NCBI GenBank assembly: GCA_951406725.2
Contig: OX597823.1
Span: 88,474,001-88,538,000 of the forward strand
Origin: Octopus vulgaris
Lineage: Eukaryota
Direction: 5' to 3'
Length of the DNA stretch: 64,000 nucleotides
Positions within the stretch are counted from its first letter, which is position 1. Every line of letters starts with the position of its first letter. A program made the translations under genes and the position numbers. Shown here piece after piece: positions 4,250 to 55,919 of the stretch. A model generated the notes under the pieces. That model saw only the letters and a program-made list of their open reading frames with translations. It was not told where the DNA came from and did not search any database.

Positions 4250-4886
4250 CTTTCTTTTTGTCATTGGATTACGACTAAGCTGGGGCACCGCTTTGAAGGG
4301 TTTACTCGAACAAATTGACCCTGTCTTTAATTTTTAAAGCAGGGGACTTATTCTGCGGTCACGACTGTACCGGACCACTAAGTTACGGGGCATGTAAACA
4401 AGCTAACACCCATTGTCCAGCTGTTAACTTAACAAGCGCAAAATCATTCACAAACCGAAATATACACAGATGCGCAAAAGAACTCAGCTATACACACACA
4501 TACACACATAAATGTATGTATACGACGGTCTTCCGTACAGTTACCGTCCGTCAAATATTCACTGAGAAGTCACTGGCTGATTTGGGTTACCGTTGAAGTC
4601 ACTTGTCGATGGTGCTACGATGCAGTTGCACTGATCACAAGGGAAGACCTGAGCTCGAAGCCACGTAGCTGTAATGTGAGCTTCTCAATCATACAGTCTA
4701 CATATATATCTTCTCTTACTTGTTTCAGTCATTTCACCGCGGCCATGCTGGAGCAACTCCTTAAAGAATATTTTAGTCGAAGATGTCGAAGCCCATGACT
4801 TATTCTTTGTAAACCTAATATTAATTATTTTGCGAATCACTATATTAAGAGGTCGTAAGCAAGCCAACAATTGTGAAGTGATGGTG
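4250..4886 (-). mobile_element. Two adjacent diverged SINE family A fragments
   Basis: GGGGCACCGC..GACTTATTCT..CTAAGTTACGGGG (4280-4400) and GTTTCAGTCATT..GGCCATGCTGGAGCA..GACTTATTCTTTGTAA (4720-4815) match 59660-59790. Confidence 0.6.
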
Positions 4887-4895
4887 ATATATATA

Positions 4896-5506
4896 TAAAT
4901 GTTTTTTAAATTTTCTCCTGGTTTACTGAATTAACTTTTATTTGCGGTTGAAGCTGTGGTTGTTATTTCTAGTGGGTGAATGGCCTATTATGGCCGTTCC
5001 TTTATTGTTGATGTTGAACTTAAAAATGGTCTATGACTATTTTAATTTTTTCCTACTAGGCCGCTGGTGGCAAAAGAATTCTACAAAATTTTTTTTGCCA
5101 CCCTATATTGATTAATTATGAATTTTCTGGTTGATTCCGTAATGGAATCGACGGCTTATATATATTTATTTGCTGCCGATAAATTTGGCGCGAGTGCGAC
5201 GATTTGAAAATTTTAGGTCAGATATAAACTTGGCAACGACGGAAATGCCTCGTGAAAATATCTGTTCCGTCTTGGGCTATTTCTTACTGATGAATCTGAG
5301 GGCCTGTGGAAGATTGGCTTGATTTAATTTAATCAGGTTAGTTTACCATTAATCAGCAGATGAAACGGTATATCGTATAAGAAATTACAGGGTAAATGTT
5401 TTTTAAATTTTCTCCTGGTTTACTGAATTAAATTTTTATTTACGGTTGAAGCTGTGGCTGTTATTTCTAGTGGGTGAATGGCCTATTATGGCCGTTCCTT
5501 TATTGT

Positions 5507-5510
<4 letters not shown>
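4896..5510 (+). mobile_element. Terminally redundant ~497-bp non-coding HHR element (retrozyme/pLTR-like) inserted in (TA)n
   Basis: ~117-bp direct repeats at 4896-5012 and 5393-5510, TA repeats on both flanks, internal HHR and hairpins, no ORF. Confidence 0.75.
5279..5385 (+). ncRNA. Type I hammerhead ribozyme with extended stem II
   Basis: Stem I ATTTCTTA/TAAGAAAT; core CTGATGA 5287-5293; stem II ATCTG...CAGAT; GAAA 5362-5365; near-palindromic stem III CGGTATATCG; GTA triplet 5375-5377. Confidence 0.85.
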
Positions 5511-5562
<52 letters not shown>

Positions 5563-19263: not shown

Positions 19264-19286
19264 TACATATATATATATGTATATAT

Positions 19287-19699
19287 ATTTCTTTACTGCC
19301 CACAAGGGGCTAAACATAGAGGCGACAAACAAGGACAAACAGAGGGATTAAGTCGATTATATCGACGCCAGTGCGTAACTGGTACTTATTTAATCGACCC
19401 CGAAGAGATGAAAGGCAAAGTCGACCTCGGCGGAATTTGAACTCACAACGTAACGGCCGGCGAAATACCTATTTCTTTACTACCCACAAGGGGTTAAACG
19501 TATAGGGGACAAACAAAGACAGACAAACGGATTAAGTCGATTATATCGACCCCAGTGCGTAACTGGTACTTATTTAATCGACTCCGAAAAGATGAAAGGC
19601 AAAGTCGACCTCGGCGGAATTTGAACTCAGAACGTAATGGCCGGCGAAATACCGATAAGCATTTCGCCTGGCGCGCGAACTTTTCTGCCAGCTCGCCGC

Positions 19700-43885: not shown

Positions 43886-44039
43886 AATTATGACACATAC
43901 ATACACACATATATATGCTTACATACCTACATACACACGTATATACACAGGTGCATGCCTACATATATAAATCTATACATGCATACATAAAAACATACGT
44001 ACTTGCGCACACACTCACGCACATATGTATGTATTTCAA

Positions 44040-44455
44040 TTCCTTTACTACACACAAGGGGCTAAACACAGAGAGAGAGGACAAACAAAGACAGGCAAAC
44101 GGATTAAGCCGATTATATCGATGCCAGTGCGTAACTGGTACTTATTTAATCGACACCGAAAGGATGAAAGGCAAAGGTCGACCTCGGCAGAATTTGAACT
44201 CGGCACGTAGCGGCAGACGAAATACCTATTTCTTTACTACCCACAATGGGCTAAACACAGAGAGGACAAAGACGGACAGACAAACGGATTAAGTCGATTA
44301 TGTCGACCCCAGTGCGGAACTGGTACTTATTTAATCGACCCCGAAAGGATGAAAGGCAAAGTCGACCTCGGCGGAATTTGAACTCAGAACGTAGCGGCAG
44401 ACAAAATACTGCAAAGCATTTCGCTCGGAGTGCTAACGACTCTGCCAGCTCGCCG
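44040..44455 (-). mobile_element. SINE family B, dimeric
   Basis: Same organisation and GAAATACC|TATTTCTTTAC junction as 19287-19700. Confidence 0.85.
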
Positions 44456-48329: not shown

Positions 48330-48762
48330 AGGCAACGAACAGGCAGACACGTTAGCACTCCGGGCGAAATGCTTAGCGGTGTTTAACTCCTTGTGGGTAG
48401 TAAAGAAATAGGTATTTTGTCTGTCTTTACGTTTTGAATTCGAATTCCGCAGAAGTCAACTTTGCCTTTCATCCCTTCGGGGTCGATAAATTGACTACCA
48501 GTTGCGTACTGGAGTCGATCTACTTTACTGTCTCCATCCCCCAAAAATTTCGAGCCTTGTGCCTGGAGTAGAAACGAACATTCTTTTATTAGCAGTATTT
48601 CGACTGCCTTTACGTTCTGAATTCAAATTCCGCTGAGGTCGACTTTGCTTTTCATCCTTTTGGGGTCGATAGATTAAGTACCAGCTGCGTACTGGGGTCG
48701 ATCTAATCAACTGCCCCGCTCCCCAAAAACTTTTGGGCCTTGTGCCTAGAGTTGAAAAGAAT
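48330..48762 (+). mobile_element. SINE family B, multimeric
   Basis: tRNA head at 48330-48380, then two bodies of the TTTGCCTTTCATCC..GGGGTCGA type (~48420-48575, ~48595-48760). Confidence 0.8.
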
Positions 48763-49568
48763 ATTGCTTTGTACTTCGTTCACTGGATGCAATACTACTT
48801 ATAATTTATTTCGAATCCTTTACATTTATTGCTAATGCTAAGTTTGTAACTGCTCGTTGATCGATAGTGTATTAAGTCAGCAAATATACGTTTTTCTTTC
48901 TCGTAATTGGACTCCATTTGCAATAAACCAACATATTTTAATCTAAAATAGTGACATGAAAATATAAATTGCAAACCTTTAGCAGTTAAAATCTTAATAA
49001 TATGCTGACTTCATATCTAATTTATACCACAGAAGGTAACTACGAATCAGTTAAGTCGCATATCATCTATAATATAAACTACAGATACATAGATACCATC
49101 ATTTCGCTATGCTTACAACACTATAAAAATTCCTGTTCACGACTCAGTGAACAACAGTTAATATTTTCTGATTAATTAGATCGTCTTGAAAAATGAAGAT
49201 AATCCAATAACTTTTGTCTAACACCAACACTAACCAAAAATCAAAAGCATTAGAACGATATTTCTTCCTTCCTACCGATTTCGATTTCTATTGTGTGAAT
49301 ATTTCATGATCCTAGTATATCATTAGGCCAATTCTCGCATGCATCTTTTGATGTCAGTATCACATTCAATCACACAAAGATATTTTCCAATATCATTTTC
49401 ATAAGTCCTGGATCACTTCCAATATATCTACGGCTCCACTGTCACTTAAACATTCCCAGCCTTTCGCTGGCCATCTCTTAACCCTTACACGCAGTTATAC
49501 AGAAGCAATGAAACAATACACACGTTCCTAACTACCGTTGATTTAAATGCTGCCACCCAACGCCCGCT

Positions 49569-53840: not shown

Positions 53841-55919
53841 ATATTGTTATATTTCGGAATGGTCATATTGCCAGTTTAGCCAATAAAAACACACGCACTA
53901 TATATTTGGTGTTATTTTGCTTCAGTGATATTTATTTTTTACATTAATCTTAATCTTATTTCGGCAAAGTTCTTTCGTCACACTCCTGTGACCGCATCAG
54001 TGGTCCTTTGTTTTCTTCTCACTTACTTGTGTCTCTCCTTACTAACCGTCAGCCATTTTGTATTTCTATTGTATGTCTTCATTTGCGCATGCTTATATCT
54101 CTATGTGCGTCTATGTTTATTTAATGTGTGTGTGGGGATGCCTGTAATATTTGTATCTTCTGGTTATATACATTCTTGTAATTTGTATTTTGTTTTTGTT
54201 GTTGTTGCTTTTGTTCTAATTTTGTTCATGTGTTTACATCCACCCATTATTATCATTACATATGCTTGTATGTATGTATAACAACAATATTAGTAATAAT
54301 AATAATAAATCTAATCGAAAAAAAAAAAAAAAGAATATACATATACATATATATATATACATACATATACATATACATATACATATATATACATATATAC
54401 ACACATATATACACATATAGATATTCATTTCTATTTCTTTAATTACCTGTGTATTTATTATGTTTGCAGGATCCACTATTGTCATATGTTGTGGTGTGCG
54501 CTATTGCTCCATTCTAGTTTTCTATTCAGGCTAGGTTTATTTTCTATTATATGTGTAGCTTCTGTAATTTGTCTAATTGTTGCATCTGTTCTATGTGTGG
54601 ACAATATCTTAATCTCTATGTTATTGATTGATCCCCCGTGTTCTTGTTCGGCGTGTTGGTACAGAATCGATGAGCTTTTACCTTCCTTGAGTTGTCTCCA
54701 ATGTTCATTCACCCGCTCACCAATGCTTCTTGCAGTTTCCCCTACGTATGTTACTGTCTTGTTACTGCATCGTCCCTCTATACATCTTATACTATAGACC
54801 ACATTTCTGGCTTTACAGTTCGTTTGTGGGCTAAATCTACATACAGTGCAATAGTTATCCGTACAGAGAGTTCTACTAAAAGGATAGCTTCTACCAATTA
54901 TAGATCTGATAGGGTTGCCTGGCTTTTCAACAACCTTAATTCTTAGTTTAAGTTTATCTAGGGTCCTTCTAAAGCGGTACGCTAGTTCACCTCCAGGAGT
55001 GGTGTCAACGAACATGACACTCTGGTATTTATGGCTATCATACCAAGAGTTGGCCTTCCCTATTTTCTTTTTTGTCCTTTCTATAGTGTTCCATGACTTG
55101 TTCCTATAGAGTGGGCAAATCCCATTCCTATCATTACATAATATATTATCAAATTTCTTCATGGCTCCTTTGTATACAACAATTAGACAAATTACAGAAG
55201 CTACACATATAATAGAAAATAAACCTAGCCTGAATAGAAAACTAGAATGGAGCAATAGCGCACACCACAACATATGACAATAGTGGATCCTGCAAACATA
55301 ATAAATACACAGGTAATTAAAGAAATAGAAATGAATATCTATATGTGTATATATGTGTGTATATATGTATATATATGTATATGTATATGTATATGTATGT
55401 ATATATATATATGTATATGTATATTCTTTTTTTTTTTTCGATTAGATTTATTATTATTATTACTAATATTGTTGTTATACATACATACAAGCATATGTAA
55501 TGATAATAATGGGTGGATGTAAACACATGAACAAAATTAGAACAAAAGCAACAACAACAAAAACAAAATACAAATTACAAGAATGTATATAACCAGAAGA
55601 TACAAATATTACAGGCATCCCCCCCACACACACACTAAATAAACATAGACGCACATAGAGATATAAGCATGCGCAAATGAAGACATACAATAGAAATACA
55701 AAATGGCTGACGGTTAGTAAGGAGAGACACAAGTAAGTGAGAAGAAAACAAAGGACCACTGATGCGGTCACAGGAGTGTGACGAAAGAACTTTGGCCGAA
55801 ATAAGATTAAGATTAATGTAAAAAATAAATATCACTGAAGCAAAATAACACCAAATATATAGTGCGTGTGTTTTTATTGGCTAAACTGGCAATATGACCA
55901 TTCCGAAATATAACAATAT
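53841..55919 (-). mobile_element. 5'-truncated Penelope-like element with inverted pseudo-LTR
   Basis: Near-identical ~742-bp inverted arms (53841-54582 / 55177-55919) around a 594-bp coding spacer; left flank (TA)n; GIY-YIG ORF. Confidence 0.92.
54482..55273 (-). CDS. Penelope-like retroelement ORF C-terminus: Cys-rich linker plus GIY-YIG endonuclease (5'-truncated; first ~32 aa derive from the inverted arm)
   Basis: CTDNYCTVC linker; NVVYSIRC..C..YVGETARSIGERVNEH; HAEQEH (CCHH); RQITEATHI..SLN; uninterrupted frame. Confidence 0.88.
   Translation of the reverse strand: MLWCALLLHSSFLFRLGLFSIICVASVICLIVVYKGAMKKFDNILCNDRNGICPLYRNKSWNTIERTKKKIGKANSWYDSHKYQSVMFVDTTPGGELAYRFRRTLDKLKLRIKVVEKPGNPIRSIIGRSYPFSRTLCTDNYCTVCRFSPQTNCKARNVVYSIRCIEGRCSNKTVTYVGETARSIGERVNEHWRQLKEGKSSSILYQHAEQEHGGSINNIEIKILSTHRTDATIRQITEATHIIENKPSLNRKLEWSNSAHHNI

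What the first reader, a model, noticed from the sequence alone, without database searches (positions are those of the whole stretch)
4896..5510. Retrozyme-like ~497-nt unit: one internal hammerhead plus ~117-bp terminal redundancy, as expected from a circular RNA template
Seen: a non-coding unit between TA repeats whose first ~117 bp recur at its end (offset 497-498), with one complete type I HHR (predicted cut after GTA at 5377) just upstream of the second repeat, plus extra hairpins (GGTGGCAAAA..TTTTGCCACC 5066-5102; GATTCCGTAATGGAATC 5133-5149). Known: retrozymes are non-autonomous HHR retroelements that produce circular RNAs, and animal ones are linked to Penelope-like elements. Inference: a ~1.2-mer permuted copy is what reverse transcription slightly more than once around a ~497-nt circle would leave, so this may be an uncharacterised cephalopod retrozyme family mobilised by a Penelope RT.
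Basis: partly seen in the sequence, partly recalled or inferred. Interest (0 to 1): 0.85.

Follow-up and report, generated by a model that had tools for sequence, protein, structure and literature searches.

The report
Two-armed hammerhead retrozyme, Penelope-type insertions
This is one copy of a young, protein-free jumping repeat whose 493-base unit carries a predicted self-cutting RNA motif; its copies start at two fixed points of the unit and often stop at the predicted cut site, which suggests that a Penelope-type enzyme likely copies one RNA from both ends of a DNA break and that the ribozyme likely cuts in living cells.

Summary
Observation confirmed: a 497-bp unit (family consensus 493) with a complete type I hammerhead (predicted cut after 5377) and a 117-bp redundancy, between TA repeats. 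It is one copy of a young dispersed family (0.37% divergence; 182 exact ends for this subfamily). The redundancy is not a random permutation. The 3' end is fixed 132 nt after the cut (site A). In 71 of 90 insertions a second, inverted arm starts at site B, 100-110 nt further on; none was A/A, and none of 22 B ends was B/B. Inner ends pile up at the hammerhead cut (29/89 and 21/70, about 7-fold), and the window copy stops 15 nt after it. Both arms carry the same alleles (29 versus 1), and A>G changes exceed T>C. This is a non-LTR retrozyme with the known Penelope footprint (inverted copy, tail on one end), here with a much longer tail. Cut linear RNA and circles are both likely templates; no circle or cleavage was shown, and the partner element was not identified. 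The scan noted this two-armed anatomy earlier at other loci of this genome. In none of the notes or papers I saw: cut-site run-off statistics and a telomerase-like stutter in 10 of 90 insertions.

The parts
4887..4895 (.). left (AT)n target remnant; no inverted arm at this locus (single-armed class, 18 of 90)
   Evidence: sequence
4896..5510 (+). whole insertion, one forward arm of 610 consensus nt: 5' end at cut+16, 3' end at site A
4896..5012 (+). first copy of the 117-bp redundancy (cut+16 to cut+132); carries private T>G at 4956
4902..4914 (+). T6A3T4 motif; reiterated 2-8 times at the inner end of the inverted arm in 10 of 90 family insertions (not in this copy)
4978..5012 (+). hairpin A and site A (..TTGAT at 5012), read through internally
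5066..5102 (+). 13-bp hairpin B preceding site B
5112..5123 (+). site B zone (cut+232 to +243, mode +239): outer end of the inverted arm in other copies
5133..5149 (+). small hairpin GATTCCGTAATGGAATC
5279..5385 (+). type I hammerhead: stem I 5279-5286/5378-5385, core 5287-5293, long stem II 5294-5361, GAAA 5362-5365, near-palindromic stem III 5365-5376, predicted cut after 5377
5393..5510 (+). second copy of the redundancy ending at fixed site A (5510); carries the same private T>G at 5454
5511..5538 (.). right (AT)n target

Best explanation
This is a copy of a young non-autonomous hammerhead repeat (non-LTR retrozyme) that is likely pasted into TA microsatellites by the enzyme of a Penelope-like element, which likely primes DNA synthesis from both ends of the cut at two fixed internal sites of one RNA. 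Shown: family, TA target, two fixed outer ends with A-B polarity, pile-up of inner ends at the predicted cut, shared alleles in both arms, exact read-through of the junction. Inferred: (1) tandem copies are transcribed and cut by the hammerhead; (2) some monomers are ligated into circles; (3) the Penelope GIY-YIG endonuclease cuts both strands of (TA)n; (4) one 3'-OH primes at site A and the other at site B, each just 3' of a hairpin; (5) on cut linear RNA both cDNAs run off near the cut (short two-armed inserts of about 125 + 215 nt), while on circles or uncut multimers they go on for up to 21 units; (6) the two cDNAs are joined head to head, or one is lost. The window copy kept only the A arm, passed the junction once and stopped at the next.
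For: 182 exact site-A ends. Of 90 examined, 70 have an inverted arm ending at site B before TA, one more ends at cut+229, 18 are single-armed, 1 is cut by a gap; none is A/A. Of 22 site-B ends, 16 have an A arm, 6 are single, none is B/B. A-arm stops in cut-2..+25: 29 of 89, rate ratio 6.6, p 5e-13; equally AT-rich bins show 1.0-2.4 against 7.7 stops per 1000 nt. B-arm stops 21 of 70, ratio 7.4, p 8e-11. Stops at the first cut are coupled in the two arms, 14 of 16 against 2 of 33, p 2e-8; 5 of 18 single-armed copies also stop there. Polymorphic alleles are in both arms 29 times and in one arm once; A>G 22 against T>C 8 on the hammerhead strand, p 3.5e-4. 253 passes across the cut show no indel. 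Stems I and III covary between subfamilies, 3 of 11 pairs with double changes. Diverged families keep the anatomy. Autonomous RT/GIY-YIG elements of this genome use TA and two ends 30-33 nt apart. A purified Penelope-type protein cuts and extends both strands and starts internally at two sites (PMC11167929).
Against: No autonomous partner with similar sequence was found among 70 GIY-YIG loci or beside the insertions. The A-B distance (100-110 nt) is three times the published tail (30-40 bp, PMC8557442). In PMC11167929 the start site did not differ between strands, whereas here the two arms use different sites. Twelve variants occur in only some units of an array, some as linked sets 2-3 units apart, which a single monomer circle does not explain. 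The 27-nt stop window was anchored on the predicted cut but its width was chosen after seeing the data. One insertion outside the set of 90 (L219) has an inverted arm that ends near cut+19. Cleavage, expression and circles are untested.
Confidence: 0.8

Rival explanations
1. Same Penelope-type mobilisation, but no circle: all templates are linear multimer transcripts of existing arrays, partly cut by the hammerhead.
For: Stops at the cut also occur on later passes, 8 of 69 against 3.2% expected, p 0.0015, including the window copy. Exact junctions fit uncut multimers as well as circles. Linked variants repeated 2-3 units apart look inherited from a source array. PMC11167929 found unprocessed RNA to be the main substrate in vitro.
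Against: Arrays could then only shrink, yet several haplotypes each have their own arrays of 8-21 units. Alleles are array-wide in 47 cases and partial in 2; 5 private alleles fill all units that cover them. The window's T>G is in both repeats and no other copy of that haplotype was found in the assembly. Unit series of the two arms are out of register in L198 and L203. Cut-site stops fall to 1 of 24 from the fourth pass on.
Confidence: 0.3
2. Only covalent circles are copied, and the stops near the cut come from a barrier at the ligation junction or from joining at short palindromes there.
For: Array-wide haplotypes and exact junctions; the arms are often joined through short microhomology in this stretch.
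Against: The stop rate is not constant per pass (21/80, 4/30, 3/15, then 1/24); first-pass stops are coupled between the arms, which points to a class of molecules with an end there; single-armed copies stop there too.
Confidence: 0.12
3. The unit is the detached terminal repeat (pLTR) of an autonomous Penelope element not yet seen, so the copies are truncated Penelope insertions.
For: Retrozymes resemble pLTRs in Xenopus (10.64898/2026.07.22.740005); one autonomous family here has a minimal hammerhead 137 nt before its first end, close to the 132 nt of this unit; the genome could not be searched exhaustively.
Against: No arm runs into coding sequence in 153 loci; the Penelope ORFs found nearby are separated by their own 3' ends and TA tracts. 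Units run head to tail for up to 21 repeats.
Confidence: 0.07
4. A satellite or DNA element amplified at the DNA level, the hammerhead being incidental.
For: Some linked variants in arrays could come from DNA-level duplication.
Against: Fixed 3' ends with ragged 5' ends, stops at the ribozyme cut, strand-biased A>G changes and covarying stems all point to an RNA intermediate.
Confidence: 0.02

Closest known systems
Animal non-LTR retrozymes (Cervera and de la Pena 2020, PMC7229834, passages seen; Li, Clavereau and Pollet 2026, 10.64898/2026.07.22.740005, parts 1-3 of 5 seen)
   Same: Non-coding tandem unit, one type I hammerhead per unit, GC 35%, no LTR features, monomers to multimers, dispersed; Penelope elements proposed as the mobiliser.
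   Different: 493 nt, above the 170-400 nt of the 2020 paper but within the 51-972 bp of the 2026 preprint; 68-nt stem II domain; strict TA target; two-armed insertions with two fixed starts, not described in the parts I read; RNA circles not shown here.
Endonuclease-bearing Penelope-like elements: insertion anatomy (Craig et al. 2021, PMC8557442, passages seen) and PAc biochemistry (Frangieh et al. 2024, PMC11167929, main text seen)
   Same: 5'-truncated partial tandems, inverted copy at the 5' side, tail at only one end, microsatellite bias, internal start at two sites near a stem-loop about 85-145 nt after the hammerhead cut.
   Different: No ORF; tail 100-110 nt instead of 30-40; the two starts segregate strictly between the two arms; genomic ends pile up at the hammerhead cut, whereas PMC11167929 found no RNA reads ending there and no need for cleavage in vitro.
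Non-autonomous Chlamys elements such as MRC1 (PMC8557442, passage seen)
   Same: Non-autonomous Penelope dependants with pseudo-LTRs and head-to-tail multimers, once mistaken for LTR elements.
   Different: They resemble their autonomous partners at the 3' end and that clade lacks canonical hammerheads; here no partner similarity was found and the hammerhead is complete.

Membership tests
non-LTR retrozyme | type I hammerhead with complete core in each repeat unit | tested here: met
   core position 7 varies among copies (A, U, G) while the other core positions were fixed by the search
non-LTR retrozyme | non-coding tandem units of a few hundred bp, low GC, dispersed copies | tested here: met
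non-LTR retrozyme | no LTR-type fixed ends on both sides | tested here: met
   inner ends vary over the whole unit; PBS and PPT were not searched for
non-LTR retrozyme | self-cleavage of the transcript | not testable with these tools
   indirect support only: stops at the predicted cut
non-LTR retrozyme | expressed as linear and circular RNA | tested here: inconclusive
   only assembled contigs of runs guessed to be RNA; a cyclic contig fits a tandem as well
Penelope-mobilised element | fixed 3' end, 5' truncation, inverted 5' copy, tail on one end | tested here: met
Penelope-mobilised element | tail of 30-40 bp | tested here: not met
   A-B distance 100-111 nt
Penelope-mobilised element | sequence similarity to the terminal repeat of an autonomous partner | tested here: inconclusive
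   none among 70 GIY-YIG loci; the search was not exhaustive
autonomous Penelope-like element (ordinary pLTR) | RT and GIY-YIG ORF contiguous with the repeat | tested here: not met
TRIM or LTR retrozyme | two fixed LTRs, type III hammerhead in the LTR | tested here: not met
   the redundancy varies in length between copies and the hammerhead lies outside it in this copy

The most novel reading that the evidence does not exclude
These insertions record the Penelope reaction step by step: a two-enzyme complex primes both ends of a TA break at two different hairpin-marked sites of one RNA, runs round a circle or off a ribozyme-cut end, and near that end stutters like telomerase by re-aligning its A-rich 3' end to a short U tract and re-copying an 8-9-nt template. 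That would give in vivo evidence for hammerhead cleavage in the Penelope cycle, an explanation of the inverted copy and one-sided tail, and repeat-addition behaviour in the sister enzyme of telomerase.
Probability: 0.35. Interest if true: 0.8.

Novelty: new member of a known kind. Interest (0 to 1): 0.55.

Why it matters
How Penelope-like elements make their inverted copies and one-sided tails, whether their hammerheads cut in cells, and whether animal retrozymes are copied from circles by Penelope enzymes are open in the papers read (PMC8557442, PMC11167929, PMC7229834, 10.64898/2026.07.22.740005). Hundreds of near-identical copies of a short unit let each step be counted, and they give exact predictions for a bench assay: starts at cut+132 and cut+232-243 on opposite strands, run-off at the cut, and stutter at cut+22. 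The element class itself is known.

Tried and rejected
Rfam at gathering score: no hit in the window. First site-B pattern was misplaced and found nothing. A pattern for short-stem-II relatives of this hammerhead found none. A fragment in L063 taken for a relative proved to be an unrelated palindromic repeat, although one of its loci held the second subfamily. The match in L261 beside a Penelope fragment proved to be a third retrozyme family, not a partner. Partner search by BLAST, profile and chimera tests was negative. RNA: no RNA holder listed on record; contigs of seven runs, six guessed to be RNA and one of unknown kind, cover the unit at low depth, and one gives a cyclic 523-nt contig; contigs cannot tell circles from tandems, ends or level, so this is not used as evidence. 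Sloppy end-to-end template jumping as the main source of tandems is disfavoured: no indel in 253 junction passes. A type III fold suggested by Rfam has a poorly paired stem I and was set aside. The first constrained fold had a one-base offset and was redone. Literature searches that found no description of a cephalopod retrozyme, of twin-primed retrozyme insertions or of a Penelope stutter; supplements of all five papers were not read (those of the preprint are closed) and may bear on this.

Full report
Observation. The hammerhead is type I: 8-bp stem I, CUGAUGA, a stem II domain of 68 nt, GAAA, and a 3-bp stem III with a near-palindromic loop; two stem III copies can pair over 12 bp (-13.6 kcal/mol), as expected for hammerheads that work as dimers (PMC4209133, passages). 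On an alignment of 9 hammerheads from related subfamilies, 92.9% of cells pair, 3 of 11 pairs change on both sides, and slid controls give 28-60%; these changes are few events, inherited by many rows.

Family. The consensus unit is 493 nt and divergence is 435 substitutions in 116,779 bases. Older relatives exist: subfamilies at 85-95%, a second family with changed stems and a third at about 65%.

Ends. An exact pattern for the window's right end plus TA gave 182 hits. I examined 90 of the first 92 listed; the other two were fetched in a separate set of long arrays. In 70 an inverted arm ends at a second site, cut+232 to +243, before TA, one more ends at cut+229, 18 are single-armed like the window, one is cut by an assembly gap, and none ends at site A on both sides. 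Because this set was chosen by site A, I also took 20 regions from the first part of a site-B list (627 forward hits, reverse count inflated by overlaps, several subfamilies): of 22 B ends, 16 face an A arm, 6 are single, none is B/B. Both sites follow a hairpin and contain TTGAT. The second and third families show the same two ends. One array outside the set of 90 departs from the rule (L219).

Inner ends. These are spread over the unit but pile up just after the predicted cut: 29 of 89 A arms (ratio 6.6) and 21 of 70 B arms (ratio 7.4). Other AT-rich bins do not show this. The window width was set after looking at the data. When the A arm stops at the first cut, so does the B arm in 14 of 16 cases, against 2 of 33 otherwise. 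Per pass the A-arm stop rate is 21/80, 4/30, 3/15 and then 1/24. The window copy stops at cut+16 on its second pass, so its 117-bp redundancy is 132 minus 15. I infer that the ribozyme cuts in vivo and that cut RNA is used as template.

One RNA for both arms. Alleles seen in two or more loci are in both arms 29 times and in one arm once; they fill a whole array in 47 cases and part of it in 2. Five private alleles fill all units that cover them, among them the window's T>G at 4956 and 5454; the only other match in the genome is a single unit on another haplotype. Arrays reach about 21 units and the junction is crossed 253 times without an indel. This favours repeated copying of one unit, most simply a circle. 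Against a pure monomer circle, 12 variants occur in subsets of units, some as linked sets 2-3 units apart; oligomeric templates, misreading of a damaged base or later DNA duplication could each explain part of this, and it stays unexplained. A>G alleles outnumber T>C 22 to 8 on the hammerhead strand, as A-to-I editing of the template would give (lead from note e1-8662707; heavy editing in cephalopods is recalled); enzyme error bias is an alternative.

Stutter. In 10 of 90 insertions the inner end of the B arm carries 2-8 head-to-tail copies of the T5-6A3 motif at cut+22; none of 208 ordinary passages of the motif does. An A-ended cDNA slipping back onto the adjacent U tract would make this, as telomerase does; templated insertion by a repair polymerase is the alternative.

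Mobiliser. The genome holds several RT/GIY-YIG families with the cysteine linker that PMC8557442 ascribes to Neptune and Nematis. Two young ones insert into TA and have two ends 30-33 nt apart; in three two-armed copies seen (L096, L108, L251) one arm has the tail and the other lacks it, while L098 looks tailed at both ends. One family has a minimal hammerhead 137 nt before its first end. None shares sequence with the unit, and nearby Penelope ORFs are separate insertions in shared TA tracts. The enzyme class is therefore inferred from the footprint; the partner is unknown.

Comparison. The element fits the animal non-LTR retrozymes (PMC7229834, passages; 10.64898/2026.07.22.740005, parts 1-3 of 5) on all sequence features tested; cleavage and circles are untested. 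The inverted copy and one-sided tail are known for Penelope elements (PMC8557442, passages), and internal starts at two sites with extension of both strands were shown in vitro (PMC11167929, main text). The differences are the long tail, the strict assignment of sites to arms and the stops at the cut. Eight earlier notes of this scan describe retrozymes of this genome, several with the same two-armed reading; I had reached that reading before opening them and do not count them as evidence.

Verdict. A real, new member of a known class, with an unusually legible insertion record. Interest 0.55.

Noticed in passing
L094:2807-6471 (and L091-L110, L242): The young autonomous Penelope family has two ORFs: a 466-aa ORF overlapping the RT/GIY-YIG ORF in the -1 frame, with a T TTT TTA heptamer at the start of the overlap in 17 of 20 copies and in a second family 58% identical. 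This looks like a programmed -1 frameshift in a class described as single-ORF.
   Followed up: partly
L251:4305, L253, L258, L263, L265; L064:2376: A second autonomous family has a minimal type I hammerhead with a CCGAAGA core (CTGAAGA in the older L064 copy) and palindromic AGTACT stem III, 137 and 169 nt before its two ends.
   Followed up: partly
L295, L296, L298, L261:6291-6730: Third retrozyme family of about 480 nt; many copies have TTGANGA in place of CTGANGA in the core, with an ACCATGGT stem III.
   Followed up: partly
L201; consensus position about 208-216: The T tract of hairpin B varies by up to 13 nt between neighbouring units of one array, suggesting slippage on each pass.
   Followed up: no
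G000:C13:51750660-51761170 (L211, L212): Longest insertion seen: inverted arm of 10.4 kb (about 21 units) with an A arm under 100 nt; three linked variants recur in units 14 and 17.
   Followed up: partly
L110:7886-7919; L265:3160; L064:690; L137:1045-1200: Further hammerhead-like motifs of other families in fetched loci.
   Followed up: no
window 54518-54880, minus strand: GIY-YIG-type Penelope fragment (25% to one family, E 3e-7) inside a 319-codon open frame.
   Followed up: no
window 4690-4830: Very abundant repeat, probably a SINE, left of the insertion; contig depth is hundreds of times that of the retrozyme.
   Followed up: no
window 19286-19653, 44039-44409, 48412-48770: Two-copy tandems of 183-185 bp SINE-like units.
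   Followed up: no
L063:2966-3092: Palindromic repeat of about 110 bp with hundreds of candidates, MITE-like.
   Followed up: no
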